From: Eledone cirrhosa
Lineage: Eukaryota
Length of the DNA stretch: 64,000 bases
NCBI GenBank assembly: GCA_964016885.1
Contig: OZ024741.1
Span: forward strand, 192,262,001 to 192,326,000
Reading direction: 5' to 3'
Under the pieces are notes generated by a model. The model made no database searches. It worked only from the letters and a program-made list of their open reading frames with translations, and was not told the origin of the DNA. Position 1 is the first letter of the stretch. The number at the start of each line of letters is the position of its first letter. Positions 3,900 through 52,616 of this stretch are shown here, in pieces. A program made the translations under genes and the position numbers.

Positions 3900-3968
<69 letters not shown>

Positions 3969-4000
3969 AAAGAATAGAGGTGTAACACACAAGTTATTAT

Positions 4001-4701
4001 ATATTGGTAAATGGAATAGAAAATGCTGACAAATTGTTCACAGTGAAAAATAGTTTAATTAGGAATAAGTGAGAATTAGTAATTGTATTGGTTAGTATTC
4101 AGTTTTGGTTTTAAGTATTACCGGTTACGCATTTCTAATGCTTTTCAAAAATAATTTTAAGATAGAGCGTCCGTGATGTTTGCTCTGATCTGATTAGTTT
4201 TGGGAATTCTACCTGTTTTTATGTTAAAAAAGTGGCTCCAGCGGTATTAAAATAGGTTTTGCGCCAATTCGTATTGCAAAAATTCTTGTGGTCAAAACAA
4301 TTTTCATTGGTCGGTAGAGGTCATGTGAATGTAAAAAATTAATTTTGCGCCAAATGTAGGTTTGTGTCGGCTGACTGAGAAATGACTCTTTCACAACAAA
4401 TACGTGTGTTTTGACCACAAGAATTTTTGCAACACGAACTGGCGCAAAACCTATTTTAATACCGCTGGAGCCACTTTTATAACATAAAAACAGGTAGAAT
4501 TCCCAAAACTAATCAGATCAGAGCAAACATCACGGACGCTCTATCTAAAAATTATTTTTGAAAAGCATTAGAAATGCGCAACCGGTAATACTTAAAACCA
4601 AAACTGAATACTAACCAATACAATTACTAATTCTCACTTATTCCTAATTAAACTATTTTTCACTGTGAACAATTTGTCAGCATTTTCTATTCCGTTTACC
4701 A

Positions 4702-4704
<3 letters not shown>
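4001..4704. repeat. Long inverted repeat (arms about 4001-4299 and 4407-4704, spacer about 107 bp)
   Basis: Arms are reverse complements with only scattered substitutions; bounded by TA-rich microsatellite. Confidence 0.95.
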
Positions 4705-4752
<48 letters not shown>

Positions 4753-6748: not shown

Positions 6749-6826
6749 AAGTACTTGAGTACTCTGGTGCATTATGGTTCACCTGGTTCCTTACCACACT
6801 TCCTTCATTATATATATATATATATG

Positions 6827-7122
6827 AAAGAAACAGTCCTTTTTTCTGAGGGGTCTCTTGATAAACCGAATCAACCTCACAGCAATGATGCACATTTATG
6901 ATGCAGAAATCAGTGCACACGGATCGGCGAAACTGCAGTCGGAACTTTGAAGAAAGAATAGGTATATTTTTGTCTATTATTTCCTCATATTCTTTCTTCA
7001 AAGTTCCGACTGAAGTTTCGCCGATCCATGTGCACTGATTTCTGCACAATAAAAGTGCATCATCGCTGTGAGGTTGATTCGGCTTATCAAGAGACCGCTC
7101 AAAAAAAAGGACCGTTTCTTTC
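6827..7122. repeat. Inverted repeat (about 134-bp arms, 27-bp spacer) with a hammerhead-like relic
   Basis: 6827-6960 is the reverse complement of 6988-7122. The arms contain ttgataa-(a/g)ccga...tcggc-GAAAC-t(g/t)ca-GTC. Confidence 0.9.
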
Positions 7123-8355
7123 GTAGCAAGTTAGAATTTCTCGAGAGACAGGGAGAGAGATAAACACATGATACAGTGGTTATAAATATGTATATATGTG
7201 TGTGTGTGTATGTATGTGTGTATATATACATGTGTGTATGTGCATATATATGTATATTTGCATGTGTGTGTGCGTATGTTTATATTTATTTATATCAACT
7301 AGAGATTGATTGACATATATATATATCTAAAATAAACACATGAAACAATCACAGGGGATAATTTGTAAAGTGTGTAAGCACACACAGCTAGGTAGGTAAC
7401 TAATTAAAGTTTAACTAGAACTTCAAATATAGATACCTTTTAAAATGATTAATCTTCCTTGTATATATTTCATTAAAGAAATATATTTCACCATTAATCC
7501 GTAAACACACAGTAGTCAAATCCCGGATTTTCAACAAAGGAGAAGATTTAACTATCTGTGTTTACACAGCGAATGCAAATCTGCAAATGACCAGTCGCAC
7601 GTGTTGCATTTTTAAAAACTACACACATCGTACCAGCGTCATCTCAGTGGCGCATGTCTCGGACATTACTCCCTTAATTTAATTTTGGTTATATATTTAT
7701 TTATATATATTTTTTATTTTTGTTATCAGTATTTTTGTATGTATGTAATATTATTGTGTGTTCTTTACTTTCTTCCCTCTATCCTTCTATATACTTATGT
7801 ATGTGTGTATGTATATGTATATGCATGTATATATGTATATATATATGTGTGTGTATATGTATATATGCATATTTCCATATGGTATTTTGATACATTAATT
7901 TTTTGGACGCACACGCGTATGTATCTATGCAGGTGTTGTGTGTGTGTGTGTGTGTATATGTACATGTTTATCTCATACTTATATGTGTGACTTGTATCGA
8001 ATTGTCTGACCGATAATTTTTATTTTTATTTTACATTTTTTTTTCTATATATATTTTTATACGTATGTAGGCGATTGTGTTTAGACGTATATATCTATTT
8101 CATATATATGTATGTGCATGCGCATTTGTCGTATATATATATATATATATATATTCTTTTTTACTGATATCTGAATGTGTGTATATGTATATGTGTATGT
8201 ATGTACACATGTGCTTCCTAATTTCTATAATTTTCTATATCATTTTTATATAATAATTTTTTATATACTTTCTTTCTTATGTATATTTTCCATTAATTTT
8301 CCAGCCTCACTTTCAATTTTAATAGATTTTCAATCTCATTTCGTATTTTCATTTC

Positions 8356-16529: not shown

Positions 16530-16532
<3 letters not shown>

Positions 16533-17018
16533 GAAGTTCTATTTAAATTGTTGGGATACAACAAGCAAATATTTTTATAACTGATATAAAGCACTCAACA
16601 AATTATTGGAGTAAAAATACGATATATTAACAAATGGAAACTATATTTATAAAACCATATTTATTTCTTTATACATATTTCAAGGACGCCAAGTTAAATT
16701 ATGGTGTGCTTTCATCAGATAAAATATAATATAGAGCAGTTTTATAAATAAATATTGACATACCCTTAAAGAATGCGACCATTTCTGTTGGAAGCTCCTG
16801 GATAGTCTATCCGGATAGACTATCCCGGATAGACTATCCGGGAGCTTCCAACAGAAATGGTCGCATTCTTTAAGGGTATGTCAATATTTATTTATAAAAC
16901 TGCTCTATATTATATTTTATCTGATGAAAGCACACCATAATTTAACTTGGCGTCCTTGAAATATGTATAATGAAATAAATATGGTTTTATAAATATAGTT
17001 TCCATTTGTTAATATATC

Positions 17019-17022
<4 letters not shown>
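16530..17022. mobile_element. Fold-back mini-element (about 198-bp arms) carrying hammerheads, inserted in (TA)n
   Basis: 16617-16814 is the reverse complement of 16825-17022 with two mismatches that I could find; the centre is CCGG with a 14-nt duplication (ccggatagactatc). Confidence 0.9.
16913..16977 (+). ncRNA. Minimal type I hammerhead ribozyme, intact core (mirror copy at 16662-16726, -)
   Basis: tattttat-CTGATGA-aagcacacca(taatttaact)tggcgtcctt-GAAA-tatgta-TA-atgaaata. 8-bp stem I, 8 of 10 pairs in stem II, AUA cleavage triplet. Confidence 0.75.
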
Positions 17023-21055: not shown

Positions 21056-22900
21056 ATTGTTGATGTAGGTGGTCTTGTTGTGGTAGGCGGACTTGTTGTG
21101 GTAGGTGGGCTTGTTGATGTAGGTGGTCTTGTTGTGGTAGGTGGGCTTGTTGTGGTAGGTGGGCTTGTTGTGGTAGGTGGGCTTGTTGTGGTAGGTGGGC
21201 TTGTTGATGTAGGTGGTCTTGTTGTGGTAGGTGGGCTTGTTGTGGTAGGTGGGCTTGTTGATGTAGGTGGGCTTGTTGTGGTAGGTGGGCTTGTTGTGGT
21301 AGGTGGGCTTGTTGATGTAGGTGGTCTTGTTGTGGTAGGTGGGCTTGTTGATGTAGGTGGTCTTGTTGTGGTAGGTGGGCTTGTTGTGGTAGGTGGGCTT
21401 GTTGTGGTAGGTGGGCTTGTTGATGTAGGTGGTCTTGTTGTGGTAGGTGGGCTTGTTGATGTAGGTGGTCTTGTTGTGGTAGGTGGGCTTGTTGTGGTAG
21501 GTGGTCTTGTTGTAGGTGGGCTTGTTGTGGTAGGTGGGCTTGTTGTGGTAGGTGGGCTTGTTGATGTAGGTGGTCTTGTTGTGGTAGGTGGGCTTGTTGA
21601 TGTAGGTGGGCTTGTTGTGGTAGGTGGGCTTGTTGTGGTAGGTGGGCTTGTTGATGTAGGTGGTCTTGTTGTGGTAGGTGGGCTTGTTGTGGTAGGTGGG
21701 CTTGTTGATGTAGGTGGTCTTGTTGTGGTAGGTGGGCTTGTTGTGGTAGGTGGGCTTGTTGATGTAGGTGGGCTTGTTGTGGTAGGTGGTCTTGTTGTGG
21801 TAGGTGGTCTTGTTGTGGTAGGTGGGCTTGTTGATGTAGGTGGTCTTGTTGTGGTAGGTGGGCTTGTTGTGGTAGGTGGTCTTGTTGGGGTAGGTGGGCT
21901 TGTTGATGTAGGTGGGCTTGTTGTGGTAGGTGGGCTTGTTGTGGTAGGTGGGCTTGTTGATGTAGGTGGGCTTGTTGTGGTAGGTGGTCTTGTTGTGGTA
22001 GGTGGTCTTGTTGTGGTAGGTGGGCTTGTTGATGTAGGTGGGCTTGTTGTGGTAGGTGGGCTTGTTGGGGTAGGTGGGCTTGTTGATGTAGGTGGTCTTG
22101 TTGTGGTAGGTGGGCTTGTTGTGGTAGGTGGGCTTGTTGTGGTAGGTGGTCTTGTTGTGGTAGGTGGGCTTGTTGATGTAGGTGGTCTTGTTGTGGTAGG
22201 TGGGCTTGTTGTGGTAGGTGGGCTTGTTGTGGTAGGTGGGCTTGTTGTGGTAGGTGGGCTTGTTGTGGTAGGTGGGCTTGTTGTGGTTGGTGGGCTTGTT
22301 GTGGTAGGTGGGCTTGTTGTGGTAGGTGGGCTTGTTGTGGTAGGTGGTCTTGTTGGGGTAGGTGGGCTTGTTGATGTAGGTGGGCTTGTTGTGGTAGGTG
22401 GGCTTGTTGGGGTAGGTGGGCTTGTTGATGTAGGTGGTCTTGTTGTGGTAGGTGGGCTTGTTGTGGTAGGTGGGCTTGTGGTAGGTGGGCTTGTTGATGT
22501 AGGTGGTCTTGTTGTGGTAGGTGGGCTTGTTGATGTAGGTGGGCTTGTTGTGGTAGGTGGGCTTGTGGTAGGTGGGCTTGTTGATGTAGGTGGTCTTGTT
22601 GTGGTAGGTGGGCTTGTTGATGTAGGTGGGCTTGTTGTGGTTGGTGGGCTTGTGGTAGGTGGGCTTGTTGATGTAGGTGGTCTTGTTGTGGTAGGTGGGC
22701 TTGTTGATGTAGGTGGTCTTGTTGTGGTAGGTGGGCTTGTTGATGTAGGTGGGCTTGTTGATGTAGGTGGTCTTGTGGTAGGTGGGCTTGTTGTGGTAGG
22801 TGGTCTTGTTGTGGTAGGTGGGCTTGTTGTGGTAGGTGGGCTTGTTGTGGTAGGTGGGCTTGTTGTGGTAGGTGGGCTTGTTGTGGTAGGTGGGCTTGTT
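21056..22900. repeat. 18-bp G/T-rich minisatellite, about 100 units, at the start of a BBS1 intron
   Basis: Unit GTTGTGGTAGGTGGGCTT with variants GTG>GAT/GGG and GGG>GGT plus occasional 15-bp units; produces the (QQAHLP)n and (VVVGGL)n ORFs. Confidence 0.98.
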
Positions 22901-23247
22901 GAAGTTGTAGATGGTTGTGGAATGTGGTGGCTGTTGTTGTTGGTGTGATTGTTGGTATATACATTTTTGTTGTTATAGAGATTGTTGTGGTGTTGGTGTT
23001 GGTGGTGTTGGTTGTCATTATAAAGGTATATTACCTGTTAGTTTTGTTGTAGTGGTGATTTTTGCTGTAGCGGTAATTGTTGTTGTTAGTGGTGTTGTTG
23101 GTGGAGAGTGATTGCTGTTATAGTGATGATTGTTATGGTGCTGGTTGTTGTTGTTAGTGGTGGTTGTTGTTGTAGTTGCGGTGGTGGTTGTTTTTGTTGC
23201 TGTTGTGATTCAATAAGTATCATCATTTATTATGTTTCCATTAACAG

Positions 23248-24472: not shown

Positions 24473-24643
24473 GTGGATTGGCAGTATCGGTAGAGGGTCG
24501 GACGCCATGCTTACGTCCCTTTACGATCTGAGTTCAAATCCCGCTGAGGTTGACTTTGCCTTTCATCCTTATGGGGTCGATAAAATAAAGTACCAGTAAT
24601 GAACTGGGTAATTGCTGGCCTTGTGCCTAAAGTAGAAACAATT
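24473..24643 (+). mobile_element. tRNA-headed SINE with Meta/MESC-like core
   Basis: GGATTGGCAGTATCGGTAGAG...GAGTTCAAATCCC...GCCTTTCATCCTT..GGGGTCGATAAAATAAAGTACCAG...GAAACAATT. Family name assigned from memory of the core motif. Confidence 0.8.
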
Positions 24644-24735
24644 ATGACAGAGCCCATAGATCTTCCCAATTGTCTCTTGAATTAAGTAAAATGTGTCTAT
24701 TTATTTTCTATTTAAAATTGTTTTTCTCCATTTAG

Positions 24736-25524: not shown

Positions 25525-25581
<57 letters not shown>

Positions 25582-25583
<2 letters not shown>

Positions 25584-26371
25584 GGAAAGTTATATTTAAA
25601 ATTGTTGGGTTACAACTAGTAAATATTTATAACTGATATAAAAGCACTCGACAAATATTTGGAGTATATTTACAATATTAAATAAATGGAAACTATATTT
25701 ATAAAACCATATTTATTTCATTATATATATTTCGGGGATATCATATTAACAATATGCTATGCCTTCCTCAGACAAAATACAATATAAACAGTTTTACGCC
25801 TCGAATATATCTGGCTATTTTAAAATTTTTTTTCTCTCGCTATTTTTTCCTCTCTCTATATTTTTTCTCTCTCTATATATCTCCCTTACATTAATACTTG
25901 AGCTAAATAAATAAATAAATAAATAAATGTATCATTGATACATTTACTCAAAATGACCTCCCACTACCTAAATTTTTTATATATATATGTATCTATCTCT
26001 ATTTCCTCTCTCTATATATATATATATCTCTTTCTGTTTCTTTACATGAAGTTCTTCGCTTTATCTATCTTTCCATCTCTCTATTTTGTTCCATGCATTT
26101 CTTCTTTTTCTTCCTTTTCTTCGTTTTCTGTCTTTCTTTCTTTTTTCTCTCTTTCTTTCTCTCTGTGTAAAATTTTTTCACTGCCAGCTTAAACCTCTTC
26201 AAATGGAAGTCGGTGTTATAACGGTATGTCGAATCTATTTATCTATAAAACTGTTTATATTGTATTTTGTCTGAGGAAGGCATAGCATATTGTTAATATG
26301 ATATCCCCGAAATATATATAATGAAATAAATATGGTTTTATAAATATAGTTTCCATTTATTTAATATTGTA
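25582..26371. mobile_element. Second copy of the hammerhead fold-back family (126-bp perfect arms, about 450-bp spacer), in (TA)n
   Basis: 25671-25796 is the exact reverse complement of 26246-26371; the left part is homologous to 16530-16760. Confidence 0.9.
26263..26328 (+). ncRNA. Minimal type I hammerhead ribozyme, intact core (mirror copy at 25714-25779, -)
   Basis: tattttgt-CTGAGGA-aggcatagcatatt(gtt)aatatgatatcccc-GAAA-tatata-TA-atgaaata. 8-bp stem I, long stem II, palindromic stem III. Confidence 0.75.
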
Positions 26372-26959
26372 TATATATATATATATATTCATAGAATAAT
26401 GAGAAAAACTCAATGCAAGAATAGCTGTTAAAACAGCAAAATGCCATCAATGACAGCGATGGGTAAAATTTACCTCACTGGCTAGAAGTGTGTTGGCCAG
26501 CAGAAGTGATAGGAAGAAAGGAGAAAAGGAAGAAAATGGACGAGACAAGATCACACAAACATCTTTTAACCTCTTCAGCTCTCAGACCGGCTGTGGTTTC
26601 GCACAATTTAATTTGAGAGGACCACATAAAATTGCCGGCTCGTGCAACAGAAAAATAAATATTTCTGCTGGTATAAAGTTTGTGTGATAAAACGTACAAA
26701 TTAGTACCAAGTCACTGGTAGAAAGGACAACAAAAGCCCTAGTGCTGCGGAAATGGCAGCAAGTGGAAGTGACAAGCAAGAGCCACGAGTAGGAGAAGGG
26801 GTAAAAGAAGAAAAGTAGCAGCAAGAAGAGAAGAGTAGGAGAGAGAGAGAGAGAAAGAACAAAAGAAGGGGGAACCTGCCGTTCTTGCTTTCACTTCAGC
26901 TCGCTGCCACTTCCGCTGCACCAGAGCTTTTGTTATCCTTTCTAGCTGGCTTCCACCAG

Positions 26960-27960: not shown

Positions 27961-28015
27961 GAGGTATACAGTCCTGATGAAGGGTAATGACCCAGAAACC
28001 TATTGATTGTTCCTC
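27961..28015 (+). ncRNA. Minimal hammerhead motif
   Basis: gagg..acagtc-CTGATGA-a-gggt aatg accc-a-GAAAC-ctatt-gattgt.cctc. Stems I and II pair; stem III is imperfect. Confidence 0.6.
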
Positions 28016-31800: not shown

Positions 31801-34030
31801 TATTGACAATAGGGTCATGACATCTGTAACATTGACAATAGGGTCCTGACATCGGTGGTATTACCAATAGTGTCTTGCCATCTGTGGTTTTCACAATAGG
31901 GTCCTCATAGCTATGGTATTAAAAATAGGGTCCTCACATCTGTGGTTTTGACAATAGGGCCCTTGTAGCTATGGCATTGGCAATAGGGTCCTGGCATCTG
32001 TGGTATTGACAATAAGGTTCTGATATTTGTGGTATTGGCAATATGGTCCTGACATCAATGATATTGACAATAGGGTCCTGACATCTAGAGTATTGACACT
32101 ATGCTCCTGACATCTGTAGCGATGGTAATTGGGTCCTGACATCTTTGGTATTGACAATATGGTTCTGACATCTGGAGTATTACAATATGGTACTGACACC
32201 TGTAGTATTAACAATAGGCTCCTGACATCTGTAGTTTTGATAATAGGGTCCTGGTATCTGTGGTATTGACAATAGGGGCTGGCTATCTGTGGTATTGAAA
32301 ATAGGGTCCTGACATCTGTGACATTGGCAATTGGGTCCTGACATCTGGAGTATTGATATTATGGTCCTGAGATCTGTGGTATTAACAATAGGGTCCTGAA
32401 ATTTCTGGAATTGGCAATATGGTCTTGACATCTGGAGTATTGACATTTGGTCCTGACATCTGGGGTAATAACAAAAGGGTCCTCACATCTGGTGTATTGA
32501 AAAAAGGGCCCTGACATCTGTGGTGTTGACATTAGCGTCCTGACATCTGTGGTATTGGCAATAGAGTCTTGACATCTGTGGTATTGACAATAGCGTCCTG
32601 ACATCTGGGTAATAGGGTCCTGACATCTATGGTATTGACAATAGGGTACTGACATCTGTAGCGCTGGTAATTGGGTCCTGACATCTTTAGTATTGAGTAT
32701 ATGGTGCTGACATCTGTGGTATTGGCAATTGGGTCATGACATCTGTGGTATTGATGATAGTGTCCTGACATCTGTGGTATTGGCAATACGGTCCTGACAT
32801 CTGTGGTATTAACAATAGGGTCCTGACATCTGTAGTATTGACAATAGGGTCCTGACATCTGTAATATTGATAATAGGGTCTTGGTAACCGTGGTATTGAC
32901 AATAGGGACCATGTATCATTGGTTTTGAAAATAGGGTCTTGACATCTGTAGCATTAGCAATTGGGTCCTGACACCTGGAGTATTGACATTATGGTCCTGA
33001 GATTTTTAGTATTGACAATAGTGTCCTGACATCTGTGGTATTGGCAATAGTGTCCTGACATCTGTTTTATTGACAATAGGGTCCTGACATCTGTGGTATT
33101 GGAAATAGAGTTGTGGCACCTGTTTTGTTGGGAATAGGGTCCTGACATTTGTGCTATTGACAATAGGGTCCTGGCACCGGTGTAATTGGCAATAGGGTCC
33201 TCACATTTGCGGTATTGACAAAAGTGTCTGACATCTGACGCATTGAAAATAGGACCCTGATATCTGTGGTATTGACATTAGGGTCATAATATCTGTGGTA
33301 TTGACAATAGGGTTCTGACATCTGTGGTATTGGTAATAGAGTCCTGGCATCTGTGGTATTGACAATATGGTCCTGATCTCTGGCGTATTCATAATAGGGT
33401 CCTGACATCTGGAGTATTGACATTATGGTCCTGAGATCTGTAGTATTGACAATAGGGTCTTGAAATCTCTAATATTGTCAATATAGTCCTGACATCTGGA
33501 TTATTGACAATAGGGTCCAGATATCTGGGGTATTGGCAATTCGGTACTGGTATGCATGGTAATGAGAATAGGTTCATGATATTTTTAGTATTAACAATAT
33601 GGTGCTGACATCTGTGGTATTGGCAATAGGGTCATGACATCTGTGATATTGACAATATGGTCCTGACATCTGTGGTATTGGTAATAGGGTCATGACATCT
33701 GTGATATTGACAATATGGTCCTGACATCTGTGGTATTGGCAATAGGGTCATGACATCTGTGATATTGACAATATGGTCCTGACATCTGTGGTATTGGCAA
33801 TAGGGTCATGACATCTGTGATATTGACAATATGGTCCTGACATCTGTGGTATTGGTTATAGGGTCCTGACATCTGTGGTGTTGACAATAGGGTCCCGACA
33901 TCTGTGGTATCGACAATAGGGTCCTGACATCTGTGACATTTTCAATAGGCTCTTGAATCTCTGGTATGGACAATAGGGTTCTGACATCTGTAGTATTGAC
34001 AATAGGGTCCTGACATCTGTGCTATTAACA
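31801..34030. repeat. 29-bp tandem repeat, about 75 units
   Basis: Consensus TATTGACAATAGGGTCCTGACATCTGTGG; a homogeneous 58-bp dimer at about 33590-33860. Confidence 0.97.
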
Positions 34031-40716: not shown

Positions 40717-41486
40717 CTGATTTATGAAAATTGAATATTTTAACCGTTACTCTGTGACCCCAAAGATCCTCTATTCATTTATTTTATTATTCAAAGGCTT
40801 GTCATTAGCAAGAAACTTTGAGTAATAATGGAGTGAATCTTCAGTTTTAAATGAATATATACACTCTGCTTCATGCACTGAATACTTTTTCCACCATTTA
40901 TATATCCAAACAATTACATACATCTATAAATATAAAATTTGTATTTGTAATTATTAGACAATTATAAAAATTGGATATAGTTATGGATGTCTGTGTATTA
41001 ACATCATTATATTTACTTGATACCTTTCAAATTTAAACAACTGGCATTCATAAACAATGATTAATGATAGATATTTCCACAATAATCACCCAGATGTTAA
41101 AGACAAAAGTTACCAATAGTTTGATAATCTTCCTAAACGAAGCTTATTATCCAGCCTCCTACACATTTCCATAACTATAATCTCATGGAATTATATTGGC
41201 AGAATTGCTAGGGTGTCAGAAAATGCTTTGTAGCATTTAGTTATGTCTTTACATTTTTCATTCAAACCTTATTGGTTTCATATTTAGTGGTCATCCTTCT
41301 GGGGTTGATAGAATAAAGTACCAGTCAAGTACTGGTGTCAATTCAATTGACATTCCTCTTCACCTAAATTGCTGGCCTTGTGCTTAAATCTAAACTATAA
41401 TAAAGGAAGGTCTGTGTGGACTGCATATGGTTTATTTCTTTTAATCCAGTTAGTAAAATAAGTTGGATTACTTTGAATAAATAATT

Positions 41487-41652
41487 GTTTCTACATTTGG
41501 CACAAGGCCAGCAATTAGCCAGTACATTACTGGTACTTTATTTTATCGACCCCGTAAGGATGAAAGGCAAAGTTAACCTCGGCAGGATTTGAACTAAGGG
41601 GACATAACTATGCTGGTAAGCATGTCCGACCCTCTACCGATACTGCCAATTC
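41487..41652 (-). mobile_element. Meta-like SINE copy
   Basis: Reverse complement of the 45285-45480 family. Confidence 0.8.
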
Positions 41653-46826: not shown

Positions 46827-47007
46827 GGTGGATTGGCAGTATCGGTAGAGGGTCGGACGCCATGCTTTCCAGCATAGTTACGTCCCTTTTCGATCTGAGT
46901 TCAAATCCCGCCGAGGTTGACTTTGCCTTTCATCCTTGCGGGGTCGATAAAATAAAGTACCAGTAATGTACTGGATAATTGCTGGCCTTGTGCCAAAGGT
47001 AGAAACA
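46827..47007 (+). mobile_element. SINE inserted in Tx1 ORF1
   Basis: 18-bp TSD aatatttagaagaggaac at 46809-46826 and 47008-47025. Confidence 0.92.
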
Positions 47008-47475
47008 AATATTTAGAAGAGGAACAAGCTTCAGTGAAACTGAACACGCCTGACGTCACAAACGTCACATGTATCCACACACAGAAGGAAGAATGTGTAG
47101 CAAATACTAACACCACCACAAGCAACAACAACAACAACAACAACACAATAAATGGGAACAACAACAACAAAAGGAATCAGCGACAACACAACGAATGAGA
47201 CACCACCACCAACAACAATAACAACATTTAATTTGCCGCAACCGTTGCTAAGCAACAGGATTTTAAATATTACCCCATGGACATTTCGCAAAAGTCCCAA
47301 TATTTGGAAGAAGCTTCCAACTATGTGACGTTTGAAGGAGAGATCCCACACATACACATACCACCACAAATAAGAGAGATGACGCCAAAAAAAAAAGAAA
47401 CTGATTTACAGAACACTTGACATTACTACAAAAAAACCCGTAACACTTCCAACAAGCATTATTAAAGCTGCATTA

Positions 47476-47596
47476 GGATGAAAGGCAAAGTTAATCCCGC
47501 CGAGGTTAACTTTGCCTTTCATCCTTACGGGGTCGATAAAATAAAGTACCAGTAATACACTGGGTAATTGCTGGCCTTGTGCCTAAAATAGAAACA
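47476..47596 (+). mobile_element. 5'-truncated SINE with inverted duplication, in Tx1 ORF1
   Basis: 18-bp TSD attattaaagctgcatta at 47458-47475 and 47597-47614. Confidence 0.9.
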
Positions 47597-50500
47597 ATTA
47601 TTAAAGCTGCATTAAAAGACATCATGCCAGACGTGGCATACCTTCAAAGAGCTAAGCAGTATGGAAGTGTGTCAGTGCTCTTTAAGAGTGAAACTCTGGC
47701 TCAAAAACATTCAGTGCACACAATAAAAACGGGTCAACACATCTTCTTCCCCACATACACGGGAAGAAGAACCTACAAAAAAAAAAAAATAACCAGGATC
47801 CCAGCAGAGGTCTACATATGGTGGATCCTACGCTGATCCCGAAGAAGGATGAGGACACCCTCCTATCTGTAGACAGGACAGACCGGAATAATTGGTTTGG
47901 AACCTGCATCGAGGTTCTGGTACAAATGAAGCCAGAGAGAGTAGAAAAAATCTAAAACAAAATCATCCTCGAAGATGTTATCTCCATTTTAGTGGAGAGG
48001 AAAAGACCTCAGTGCCATAAGTGTGGGAAAACCACACACTTGAAGGACTTTTGCCCTCTCTTAAACAAACCAAGGACAAACAAGGTGCTACCACCAACAC
48101 CAAAACCCCAACATCAACACCCCAAACCAAACACAACACAAACACTTGCAACATACACTCCCACAACACCACAGACCAGAGACAAACACACACACACCAT
48201 CCCACTGAAAAACCCTCCCTTGCCTCCTCCCTCTCTGTCATATACTTCCACAAACACCTGCACAAACGCTCCACCACACAACATATCCTCTCATCTACCC
48301 CTGATTCAGAAGTCTCAGACACGAGAACCTCTACATCTCCAAGTAAGGATGAAGAGGAACCCCAAAAATCCCCAAAACAAAAAAGAGACAAAAAAACCCC
48401 CACAAAAGCAAAAACATCTACAGAAAACACGCACACTCCCAACCTCACCATAAACATACCACCACAAATGACAAACACACCAACAACCCAATCACCACCA
48501 ACACAACCAAACACTTCACCAACAAAACAAACACCCACACTACCACAATCACAAACCCAACCACAAAAAGAAAACTACAAACAGAAACAGTACACATAAA
48601 AAACAAAACACATTACACATACATAAAAACAACAAACAAAGAAGTGGTAGAAACTGTCTGAAAGGATCCCACTATCCAAACGAAAGGGAAAACCTTCCCC
48701 ATCAACGACCCACCCCAAACCTTAAACTAATCAGGGTAACAACCCTACAACATGAAACATTAAAAGGGAACTTCCCACACGATGTGGGCCCCCCTTGCCA
48801 AAAACCCCTTAACTGTGTCCTGCTAAAATGATTCCCTCCCTCCCCAAACACCCCCAATCTGGACATGGAGATTGAACAACCCGACCTCCAGGAAACTAAA
48901 AGGGAAGTGTTCCTGCCTTTTCTATCCCTAACTCTTCTTCACCAACATGGCCACTATACAAGTTGGATGTTTGAATGTACATGGCCTGAGCATGCCCTGG
49001 AAACAGGGCCAGTTTTTAAATGATCTGAGGTCATATTGTATAGATGTGATAGCCATCACCGAGTCCAGGATTCACGACAAGCAGCAGCTAACCCCCATGT
49101 TCGATGATTTTGAGATCTACGCATCTCTCTGTCAGCCAGGAGGTGGAGGGGAGTTGCTGTTCTGTTTCGAAAAAACCTGGATCTCAAAGTACAGACGATT
49201 CACTTGGACCCGGAGGGCAGCCTGGTGGTCCTGGACGTGAATGGTAGTGAAGGTGGAGCTTTCAGACTGGTGGCCGTATATGCCCCAACTGGGACATCGC
49301 TACCACAGTTCTTCAAGCGTCTGGAGCCATTCCTGGGAACATATTGCTCCTAAGTGTTAGCGGGGGACTGGAATGGCATGTTAGACGCACGTTGGGACTA
49401 CGTAGGAGTTTGTGATAATAGAGGGGGGTGGGTGGGTAATAGCCTAAAACTTCTCATCAGCCAATTCCAACTGGCTGATAGATATCGACTAGACTTCCCA
49501 AGTGAACCACTGTGGACGTGGAGCAACCGCACTGGATCTTCTAGATCGTATTTAGATAGATTTCTAATTAGACAGAATGATAAGGAAACATTAAGCTGTC
49601 CACAAATGCACATGGTTGCCTTATTCAGACCACAAATTAGTCACCTGCATAGTCAACCTTGATAGAACACATAGACAGGGACCCGGATACTGGAAGCTAA
49701 ACATGTCGCTCCCGGCGCGTAAGGCCTACAGTAAACGGATTAGCACCTTAGTTAAGAGCCAGTTGACGGGGGCCATCGTCAACAACAGGTGGTGGAGCTC
49801 TCTCAAGAGAGCAATTAGAATAGAATCGATAGCATTTAGCAAGGAAGTAGCTTTAGAAACAAACAAAACTGAAAAGGAGCTGGTAACTAAAGTAGAAGAG
49901 GCACTTAGGAATGGCGAGAACGGCACTAGACCAGTTTTTCAACGTGAAACATGAAGTTTGTATTGTCAGAAGTGGAACACGTGCTCTAAGAAACGAGGGT
50001 GCCAAAGCTGTTAGCTGGGCCCGAGTGGTAGAGGCGAAAAGAGGCAACAAATCCACAATTCGCTCTTTGCAAGACAAAGATGGACGCATTCTACTTGAAT
50101 CCAAGCAGATGTGCACGGCCTTCCAGCAGCATTTTTTACAACTGTTGGGGTAAAGCGGTACGTCGGGTGAAGTGATGGACTTCAGTTCCTACCTCGACGG
50201 CGTACCACGACTCTCGAGCATGGATGCAGAGAGCTGCGAAAGACCGATCACAGCGGGCGAAATAGAAGACGCCCTAGGCCGCTGTGGGAAACACAAATCA
50301 CCTGGTTTAGATGCTCTACTCTATGAGTTTTACATAGGCATGCCAGGCTTGCTCTCTGGCGTCCTCGAAGCGGTCTACTGCAACTGGCAGCAGAACGGGA
50401 GGATCCCCAGTTCTGTAGGCAGAGGCGTAGTAACGCTGATCAGGAAAGATGAGAACAAGGGGGATGAGATAAGCAATTTCAGGCCCATAACTCTGCTCAA

Positions 50501-52616
50501 CACAGAGTTAAAGATTTTGGCCAAGGTGTTAGCAACGAGGCTGGCACTTGTCGTTGAGAACCTGGTAGGGGAAGCACAAACGTGTGCAATCCCGACCAGG
50601 TCCATACACGACAACCTTCACCTCATGCGATACATCATAGAGAGAGTAGGGTGTAAACCTGGCTTCGGTAGGGCTCTGATCAATTTAGATCAGTCTAAGG
50701 CATTTGATAGGGTCGACCATCAATACTTGGAAGGGGTTCTCAAGGCGGCCGGCTTCGGTCGCGTCTTCGGTCCCATATTCAGAGGCTGGATCGCTGCCAT
50801 GCACACCAGCCTCTGCTCGGCAGTCAAGGTGAATGGCTACCTATCGGAGCCATTCGAAATCATGCGTTCCATCCGTCAGTTATGCCCTCTCTCCTCCATT
50901 CTGTATGTACTGACTCTTGAGCCATTACTGCGGAATTTGGAGCTGTTGCAGGGTATCCCAATCGAACCAGGATTGTAGAAAGCAGCGTCGGCCTATGCTG
51001 ATGACGTAACCGTAATGGTGTCGAAAACCTCGGAAATCGGGGTAATCGGCAACCTATTACAGGAATACGAAACGTTGACAGGAGCAAGACTAAACCCAAA
51101 CAAGTCTGTCGGTTTGCAACTCGGCACATGGACAGGTAAACGCATGCCTTCCGACATTGTCGTTGGACGCTGGACGGAAGGACCGGTGAAATTGCTCGGG
51201 GCCTGGCTTGGTCCAGACCTCTAGGTGGACAAGAACTGGAATGAGGTCACGGCGAGAAGTGGGCTGAGTGCAAACTCTCATTGAAAGGTCGAGCGGAGGT
51301 GGCGAACACTTACATAGCGTCCGTCATGAACTACCGCTTGACAGTCGTGCCTTGTCCCCGCGAATACCTCACCAAAATGGAACGCCTACTCTTCAAGTTC
51401 CTCTCGAAGAAACAGGCTCCATTGGTGAGGAAATCCATCTGTTGTCAACACCCTTCTAATGGAGGGCTGGGCATGCCGTGGCTGATGATGCGCAAACAGG
51501 CGCTGAGACTACGCCATCTCCAGGTATTCCTGACCGGCGAGCCGGTGTGGCTGTCGTTTGTGAGACGAGCTCTTCCACAACTCGTCTCACTAACAGAGCT
51601 GCAGTCCTGGGTCAAGCGAAGACCGAAAATGGGCGCCTGGCACCTCGAGTGCCTTTAGGCGCTCACAGCCCTCCACCAGGCGGAAACAGCAATCAGCGGA
51701 GACTCCACTTCGACATTCTACAGGGGATTAGTGGAGGATAAGTGCGACGATGTTCTCGGGGAAATTCTAGGCATCGAGGAGGACGAACTGACCAGTCTGT
51801 TCGGGAGGACTTTCCGTCCAGGGCCTATGGATAGCTTCCAGAGGTTTCTGGCCTGGCAGTGCTACCGAGGAGCTCTACGAGTTCGAGACAAAATTTACAG
51901 GCACAGACGCCCTGGCAGAGATCCTGCCAAAAGGACCTATCCAAGATGCGAGCAGGACATCGAAACCGTTCTGCACGCAATTGTTCAGTGACCAGGGGTG
52001 ACCGACCTGTGGAATTATGTCAAACAGCTACTGTCACGTGTGGGACACATCCAGTTGTCAACCGAGTCCATTGTGAGGATCACCCCGCCGCCTTCATTTA
52101 AGAATGAAGGAGAGGCGCTTTTTCTCTGTCTGGTGGCTATGGCGAAAGAGGTAATATGGTGGACGAGGTTAAAAGGACTGAGGACAAACACCTTTCTCTG
52201 CGGACAACAACTCATCCCCTTCTTTAAGTACCATTTCAGAAGGAAGGAGAGAGTGGAAAGAGAGATGCTACACCCCAGTAAATTCGTTGAAAGGTGGGTG
52301 AATGCGGCGAAAATGGCCCGAGTGAATGGGCCTTCTCTGTATATAAACCTGTAGGTTGGGGAAGATAAACAGAGGGAAGACGGGAACACCTACAAAACGT
52401 GTTCCTGGTGTTGTGGATTGTTCTATCCACGGGATGTAAAACGACCCCGCAGTAGCGTTAACCCCCTATTGGGGATTTCAATTGTTTTATTTTTATATAG
52501 TTTATTGTTATTTATCATTGTTAAGATTTTATGTAAAACCCCCACTGTCACGTCTTGTAATGTCCCATTTTTGTGCGCCCTTGTGGCAAATAAAGAAAGA
52601 TATCTATCTATCTATC

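What the first reader, a model, noticed from the sequence alone, without database searches (positions are those of the whole stretch)
25582..26371. Second family member keeps the ribozyme structure while stem II sequence turns over
Seen: the same flanking sequence as the 16.5 kb element, with perfect 126-bp inverted arms around a CT-rich spacer. Stem II has a largely different sequence (aggcatagcatatt/aatatgatatcccc versus aagcacacca/tggcgtcctt) but still pairs. Both copies keep the core, stem I and a C-C mismatch at stem II position 4. Inference: structure-preserving divergence argues that the ribozyme was selected in the master elements. An independent insertion with a different inversion point argues that fold-back is part of the integration mechanism.
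Basis: partly seen in the sequence, partly recalled or inferred. Interest (0 to 1): 0.75.

Follow-up and report, generated by a model that had tools for sequence, protein, structure and literature searches.

The report
Penelope retrotransposon copied from both ends
This is a truncated, back-to-back copy of an abundant Penelope-type jumping gene that keeps a hammerhead-ribozyme motif intact across its subfamilies, and its two arms end at two different fixed points, which likely means one RNA was copied from both sides of the cut DNA rather than by a DNA fold-back.

Summary
In detail: 126-bp perfect arms, each carrying a minimal type I hammerhead (HHR). The element is a 5'-truncated, inverted copy of a Hydra-like Penelope-like retrotransposon (PLE), with 22,492 exact hits of one 37-mer in the genome. 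Full-length copies (3,889-bp unit, 736-aa RT plus GIY-YIG ORF) carry the identical HHR. The 'CT-rich spacer' is element sequence (pLTR). Selection on the HHR is supported: 0 of 10 core columns vary between subfamilies, while N7 takes all four bases. Covariation is real but thin (3 pairs, about 3-4 events); stem II is partly broken, not 'largely different'. Simple fold-back is not supported. In 70 of 71 inverted insertions exactly one arm carries a 92-nt tail, on the shorter or longer arm about equally; some inverted arms are tail only; arms share source alleles; both end sites sit beside a duplicated hairpin. Best reading: twin target-priming at two start sites of one RNA. HHRs in pLTRs, inverted copies and one-sided tails are published. 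The scan already noted this twin-start footprint in other families of this genome.

The parts
25562..25582 (.). (TA)n target, left flank (next to a (TC)n tract)
25583..25796 (-). Short inverted arm: 80 nt upstream of the anchor 29-mer, HHR, then through the inner end site to the outer (tail) end
   Evidence: 2 mismatches in 214 bp against full-length copy L082
25583..25670 (-). Tail, on this arm only (92 nt between the two end sites in the L082 unit)
25636..25665 (-). Predicted hairpin motif just downstream of the inner end site; a homologous motif follows the outer end site in full-length copies
25708..25786 (-). Minimal type I hammerhead, left copy (predicted cut after 25722)
25792..25796 (.). 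Head-to-head junction with 5-bp microhomology TTTTA
25792..26371 (+). Long arm: pLTR from 548 nt upstream of the anchor, through the HHR, to the inner end site; no tail
25797..26179 (+). CT-rich pLTR / 3' UTR segment, inferred promoter region
   Evidence: homology to L035 and L082; promoter role inferred from the truncation hot spot at 26180
26180..26180 (+). Family 5'-truncation hot spot, inferred capped transcription start
   Evidence: 20 of 104 arms end at this base or the next; extra G in 24 of 42 non-native junctions
26256..26334 (+). Minimal type I hammerhead, right copy: stem I 26256-26270/26321-26334, core CUGAGGA 26271-26277, stem II 26278-26308, GAAA 26309-26312, palindromic AUAUAUAU 26312-26319, predicted cut after 26320
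26370..26389 (.). (TA)n target, right flank; TA at 26370-26371 is shared between element and target
16530..17020 (.). Second insertion of the family (another subfamily): tail on the left arm, none on the right, palindromic centre

Best explanation
This is a truncated, inverted insertion of a Penelope-like retrotransposon with Hydra-clade motifs whose hammerhead core is invariant across subfamilies, and the inversion was likely made by twin priming of one RNA from both ends of the cut DNA. Shown: element identity, two fixed 3' end sites 92 nt apart, one used by each arm, arms drawn from the same source, (TA)n flanks. Inferred steps: the RT/GIY-YIG protein cuts both strands of (TA)n. One DNA end primes reverse transcription at the outer site and the other at the inner site, each marked by a copy of a small hairpin. 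The upstream-moving enzyme would displace the other cDNA and recopy the same RNA, which duplicates the HHR region. The two cDNA 3' ends are joined head to head through microhomology (TTTTA here) or short fill-in. The template is likely the uncleaved RNA, so the ribozyme is kept by selection on source elements for another step, perhaps protein-assisted or dimeric processing of read-through RNA. Individual copies decay neutrally. Identity about 0.95, selection on the HHR about 0.85, twin priming about 0.7.
For: Identity: copies L082 and L083 read (TA)n, inverted arm, pLTR, 736-aa ORF, pLTR, (TA)n, and carry this HHR. The model (pLDDT 90.2) matches telomerase RT best, E 2e-9. Motifs RWR, DKT, YRDD, CxCX5C, VY..YVG, CxxC-E-N-CxH match the Hydra description and Hydra-1_Obim by eye. 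HHR: core 0 of 10 columns with a variant shared by 4 or more of 71 insertions, against 15 of 31 in stem II/loop and 23 of 54 in flanks (Fisher p 0.007 and 0.010). Tree changes on clades of 3 or more: core 0, N7 7, stem II/loop 25 in 30 columns, downstream flank 15 in 17. 96.1% of cells paired against 35-52% when slid. Twin priming: 70 of 71 scorable inverted insertions have one tailed and one tail-less end, binomial p 6e-20. Among 52 pairs of this clade the tailed arm is longer in 17, shorter in 14, equal in 21. Six insertions have an inverted arm made only of tail, absent from the partner arm (L040:3962, L097, L138, L015:1508, L007, L039:1059). Arms differ by 0.65 per 174 nt within an insertion and 3.79 between, 26 pairs, permutation p 5e-5. 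A homologous hairpin follows each end site. In vitro, anole Poseidon extends both target strands from two start sites that bound the tail, on uncleaved RNA (PMC11167929).
Against: No cleavage, expression or insertion was assayed. Only 3 pairs change on both sides, which 377 of 500 shuffles reach; on the tree they are about 3-4 events. Core against the downstream flank alone is not significant (p 0.12), and the upstream flank count is inflated by indels and truncated copies. The active fold is not the predicted ground state: -1.4 against -9.7 kcal/mol for this copy, and RNAalifold pairs stem I with the GAAA core. Stem II pair 8 is broken in 14 of 47 haplotypes and pair 1 in 6 of 47. Five pairs have near-equal arms away from the hot spot (82/82 twice, 94/94, 468/468, 65/66), as snap-back predicts. 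One insertion (L038) has tails on both ends. Shared alleles could also come from two RNAs of one locus or from later gene conversion. Loci were the first listed on contig C1 plus pairs I picked, not a random sample. Hairpin energies are weak (about -3 to -4 kcal/mol).
Confidence: 0.7

Rival explanations
1. Fold-back with endonuclease trimming: one cDNA snaps back and copies itself into a hairpin with two tailed ends, and the endonuclease then trims one end at the inner site during integration.
For: Explains identical arms and near-equal arm lengths. Craig et al. ascribe the tail to EN-mediated resolution. D. virilis EN needs the tail DNA for recognition, as cited in PMC11167929.
Against: In 14 of 52 pairs, including this one, and in six tail-only cases, the first-made long arm would have to lose its target-linked tail exactly at the inner site. 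Non-inverted copies end at either site. Both sites carry the same downstream motif. Two RT start sites are shown in vitro for another PLE.
Confidence: 0.15
2. Hybrid: both DNA ends prime at the two sites, but one cDNA folds back and its sense copy anneals to the other cDNA; or two RNAs from one source locus are used.
For: Keeps the one-tail rule and explains equal arms around short palindromes such as CTGCCAG and TATA.
Against: Not needed for tail-only arms or for pairs of very unequal length. The hot spot is explained as the RNA 5' end.
Confidence: 0.12
3. Inversions arose after insertion (recombination, gene conversion, assembly artefact) and the HHR conservation is drift.
For: Young family; few independent covarying events.
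Against: The one-tail rule, varied junctions with fill-in, inverted junctions also in independent short-read contigs, and N7 free while its neighbours are fixed.
Confidence: 0.03

Closest known systems
Hydra clade of Penelope-like elements, including Hydra-1_Obim (Craig et al. 2021, PMC8557442; passages, section 11, supplement part 2 and supplement search hits read)
   Same: C-terminal EN, RW(K/R), DKT, CxCX5C, CxxC/E/N/CxH, sense HHR near the 3' end, (TA)n targets, inverted 5'-truncated copies, tail often at one end only. Hydra HHRs also have a loose position between core and stem II, where this copy has A x C.
   Different: A different family from Hydra-1_Obim (HHR and ORF sequences differ on reading). 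Unit 3,889 bp against under 3 kb; tail 92 nt against 30-40; longer stems I and II with a fixed C x C mismatch; at least 22,492 copies of the 37-mer.
Minimal type I hammerheads of metazoan PLEs (Cervera and de la Pena 2014, PMC4209133; parts 1-2 of 4 read)
   Same: Short palindromic helix III, long helix II, high within-genome variability with compensatory changes, and pairs of HHRs 100-700 bp apart on opposite strands.
   Different: Closing pair is A-U or A x C (or a slipped G-C) rather than a fixed G10.1-C11.1; helix I is long.
Anole Poseidon PAc (Frangieh et al. 2024, PMC11167929; parts 1-2 of 4 and passages read)
   Same: Two internal RT start sites bounding the tail, both target strands extended, AT-rich target, HHR cleavage not needed for insertion.
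   Different: Other clade. In what I read, the paper reports no difference in start site between strands and does not link the two sites to inverted copies or to a one-of-each rule.
L1 twin priming (recalled from memory; paper not held)
   Same: Two target ends prime one RNA at two places and the cDNAs are joined head to head by microhomology.
   Different: Here the second site is fixed, 92 nt from the first, and the 3' region is usually duplicated in both arms.
Animal non-LTR retrozymes (bioRxiv 10.64898/2026.07.22.740005; part 1 of 5 read)
   Same: Type I HHR, PLE-related.
   Different: This is a fragment of a coding element, not a tandem non-coding unit.

Membership tests
Penelope-like elements (C-terminal EN+) | Single ORF with telomerase-like RT | tested here: met
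   736-aa ORF in L082/L083; best fold match TERT 3du5, E 2e-9. Pfam and PDB sequence searches gave nothing.
Penelope-like elements (C-terminal EN+) | C-terminal GIY-YIG endonuclease | tested here: met
   Motif level only: VY616-617, YVG630-632, R641, E700, N712; Y617, Y630, G632, R641, E700, N712 invariant in 56 aligned sequences. No nuclease among the listed fold hits.
Penelope-like elements (C-terminal EN+) | pLTRs as partial tandems, inverted 5'-truncated copies, optional tail | tested here: met
   L081-L084; 72 inverted insertions
Penelope-like elements (C-terminal EN+) | Sense HHR in the pLTR | tested here: met
Hydra clade | RWK and DKT motifs | tested here: met
   RWR37-39 (K in 29, R in 21 of 56 sequences) and DKT118-120
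Hydra clade | CxCX5C linker; CxxC and CxH around conserved E and N | tested here: met
   CNCRDRSKC596, CDLCAEE694, N712, CKH721
Hydra clade | CCHH motif absent from EN | not tested
   No alignment to CCHH-bearing PLEs was made
Hydra clade | (TA)n insertion preference | tested here: met
   End sequences
Hydra clade | Generally under 3 kb (descriptive) | tested here: not met
   3,889-bp unit with long 3' UTR
Hydra clade | Placement in the Hydra clade of the RT tree | not testable with these tools
   Reference proteins could only be read in the supplement, not loaded
Type I minimal hammerhead ribozyme | Core CUGANGA, GAAA, UH with helices I and II | tested here: met
   Rfam gave no match at gathering scores
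Type I minimal hammerhead ribozyme | Palindromic helix III allowing a dimer | tested here: met
   AUAUAUAU self-duplex -3.2 kcal/mol; the AUAUGUAU variant is weaker
Type I minimal hammerhead ribozyme | G10.1-C11.1 closing pair | tested here: inconclusive
   A-U in 41 of 47 haplotypes; A x C in this copy, where a slipped G-C is possible
Type I minimal hammerhead ribozyme | Self-cleavage | not testable with these tools
   No assay; no excess of copies starting at the cut site (20 against 18 at a control site)
Non-LTR retrozyme | Non-coding tandem HHR units | tested here: not met
   Sequence belongs to a coding element

The most novel reading that the evidence does not exclude
Penelope-like elements insert by programmed twin priming: a duplicated RNA hairpin sets two start sites on one uncleaved, capped RNA, each end of the cut (TA)n target takes exactly one, and displacement synthesis on the shared template yields the inverted copies and the one-sided tail. 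That would explain with one mechanism the inverted/tail architecture that Craig et al. list as unresolved.
Probability: 0.6. Interest if true: 0.65.

Novelty: new member of a known kind. Interest (0 to 1): 0.42.

Why it matters
How PLEs make inverted copies and one-sided tails is named as an open problem (PMC8557442). This young, very large family gives a countable rule (one tail per inverted insertion in 70 of 71), tail-only arms, a candidate RNA signal and a candidate transcription start, which together define a direct in vitro test. It also gives a natural series of minimal hammerheads in which the core is fixed although cleavage leaves no mark on inserted copies. The family type, the HHR and the inverted layout are not new.

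Tried and rejected
DNA search of the own genome with the 214-bp arm returned nothing; exact patterns worked. Rfam: no match. Pfam and PDB sequence searches: nothing useful. RNA runs: no RNA holder listed; no bearing on expression. Contigs of two public runs did not span the locus, so an empty allele could not be tested. HHR cut site as an RNA 5' end used for insertion: no excess, 20 against 18 copies; this tests only copies joined directly to (TA)n. Hot spot as a splice acceptor: rejected, arms start 7-8 nt before the AG. Arms limited to the 5' pLTR of one unit: rejected, both arms exceed pLTR length in L036, L086, L087, L089, L090, L085. Searches were superseded by merged-region versions; the arm comparison failed on an offset and was redone. 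HHR-like hits at 27974 (not examined) and 50998 (inside a YADD-coding RT stretch) were not counted. Literature searches for a published twin-priming model of PLE inversions (listings only unless named) found none; subscription papers are not covered, and the supplements of PMC11167929 and PMC4209133 were not read. R-scape was not available. No complex prediction was run. A look-up of earlier findings by sequence returned nothing.

Full report
Observation. The arms at 25671-25796 and 26246-26371 are perfectly complementary over 126 bp, and each carries a minimal type I hammerhead pointing outward (6 pattern hits, 0.78 expected). The 16.5-kb element is 82-84% identical.

Identity. A 37-mer downstream of the HHR has 22,492 exact hits in the 3.0-Gb genome, none for the reversed control. 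The exact 42-nt HHR of this copy has 863. Copies L082 and L083 show the whole element: (TA)n, inverted arm, pLTR, 736-aa ORF, 3' UTR, pLTR, (TA)n, unit 3,889 bp. The protein has 150 homologues at about 30-42% identity among the 120 listed, three of them named from Argonauta; the host is probably an octopod (inference). The model is confident (pLDDT 90.2) and its best fold match is telomerase RT. RWR, DKT, CxCX5C, VY..YVG and CxxC-E-N-CxH are the Hydra-clade features of Craig et al., and the ORF follows Hydra-1_Obim motif by motif on reading. No tree with their references could be made, and the unit is longer than the usual 3 kb.

Selection on the ribozyme. I used 71 insertions not chosen on the HHR core or stem II (73 found; two duplicates dropped). 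Most were found through the downstream 37-mer, so those 37 columns, which include U16.1, H17 and the 3' strand of stem I, are left out of the test. None of 10 core columns has a variant shared by four or more insertions; N7 reads T 43, G 12, A 11, C 5; stem II/loop has 15 of 31 such columns and the flanks 23 of 54 (p 0.007 and 0.010, but 0.12 against the downstream flank alone). On a tree, changes on clades of three or more are 0 in the core, 7 at N7, 25 in 30 stem II/loop columns and 15 in 17 downstream columns. Rare variants hit the core at 0.7% and the downstream flank at 1.0%, so single copies decay. On 47 haplotypes (four with deletions or a duplication dropped), 96.1% of cells pair and three stem II pairs change on both sides; cells exceed all shuffles but the number of pairs does not (377 of 500), and they are about 3-4 events. 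Pair 8 is broken in this clade. The active fold is not the predicted ground state, in line with low activity and protein or dimer dependence reported for such HHRs. Within-genome variable HHRs with compensatory changes, and opposite-strand pairs 100-700 bp apart, are published.

Two fixed ends. Copies end at an inner site 44 nt past the anchor or an outer site 92 nt further, both joined to (TA)n. Of 72 inverted insertions, 71 could be scored; 70 have one end of each kind and one (L038) has two tails (outermost copies used for L037, L082, L083). In 52 pairs of this clade the tailed arm is longer in 17, shorter in 14 and within 15 nt in 21; junctions overlap by 1-12 nt in 25, are blunt in 2 and have fill-in or unassigned bases in 25 (long arms of L005, L009, L039 map poorly). 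Among copies with a single anchor, six have an inverted arm made only of tail and four more reach at most about 11 nt past the inner site; short inverted inner-site arms were not found, but that search was less sensitive. Arms of one insertion share alleles: 0.65 differences within against 3.79 between, 26 pairs. After a lead from earlier scan notes I checked the sequence after each end site: both carry RCTC-CA..TG-TY-GAGY-GCTTT, a weak predicted hairpin, A-U closed at the first and G-C at the second.

Mechanism. A single fold-back needs one arm to be a copy of the other. That fails for this copy, for 14 of 52 pairs and for the tail-only arms, unless an endonuclease trims the first arm. Twin priming of one RNA at two sites explains all of these and agrees with the in vitro behaviour of anole Poseidon. 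Displacement synthesis, the hairpin role and a single RNA molecule are inferred. Near-equal arms away from the hot spot keep a fold-back step possible.

RNA 5' end. Twenty of 104 arms stop at one of two adjacent bases, window 26180-26181. Genome-wide, 42 copies have a non-native base before this A against 123 with the native C, and 24 of the 42 have G (p 9e-6 against 0.25, 0.001 against one third). An extra G is what copying a cap leaves (established for LINEs; recalled), although some Gs may come from the opposite arm. This suggests a capped transcript starting 140 nt before the HHR cut site, with the CT-rich segment as promoter. Copies starting at the HHR cut site are not enriched (20 against 18 at a control site), so cleaved RNA is not a visible template.

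Verdict. A real feature and a new family of a known kind. The one-tail rule and tail-only arms are the part of interest; I found no paper stating them, but the scan has noted the same footprint in other families of this genome. Sampling was from contig C1 listings and picked pairs, and nothing was assayed.

Noticed in passing
window 3961-4708: 302-bp inverted arms in (TA)n with a one-sided extension of about 37 bp and no HHR by a relaxed scan; probably another PLE family
   Followed up: partly
window 6823-7125: 138-bp inverted arms, 92% complementary, left end in (TA)n, no HHR by a relaxed scan
   Followed up: partly
window 16530-17020: Both arms share a pair-breaking T>C in stem II seen in no other sampled insertion; the centre is three copies of a 13-bp near-palindrome
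   Followed up: partly
L119:3560-4170: The transcription-start hot spot is joined directly to ORF sequence about 160 nt past the ATG, giving a permuted copy; suggests a template jump from the RNA 5' end, or a circle. Single case.
   Followed up: no
L082:5420 and window 25792: Two insertions break within 5 nt of each other at the pLTR start (553 and 548 nt upstream of the anchor); a possible second hot spot
   Followed up: no
L029, L049, window 26308: The U>C change before GAAA (A-U to A x C, or slip to G-C) arose in two clades, 6 and 4 tips
   Followed up: partly
L040:741, L015:1813, L116:4022: Older sister subfamilies with different stem II and G/A swaps in stem I that keep pairing
   Followed up: partly
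window 50998-51044: HHR-like pattern hit lies in a YADD-coding reverse transcriptase stretch; chance match
   Followed up: yes
window 21057-22901: 103 copies of an 18-bp unit with four frames open for over 630 codons; possibly coding
   Followed up: no
window 31801-34030: 29-bp minisatellite, 77 copies
   Followed up: no
window 24528-24645, 41478-41598, 46895-47015, 47493-47602: Dispersed 110-120-bp repeat in several copies; resembles a SINE (recalled)
   Followed up: no
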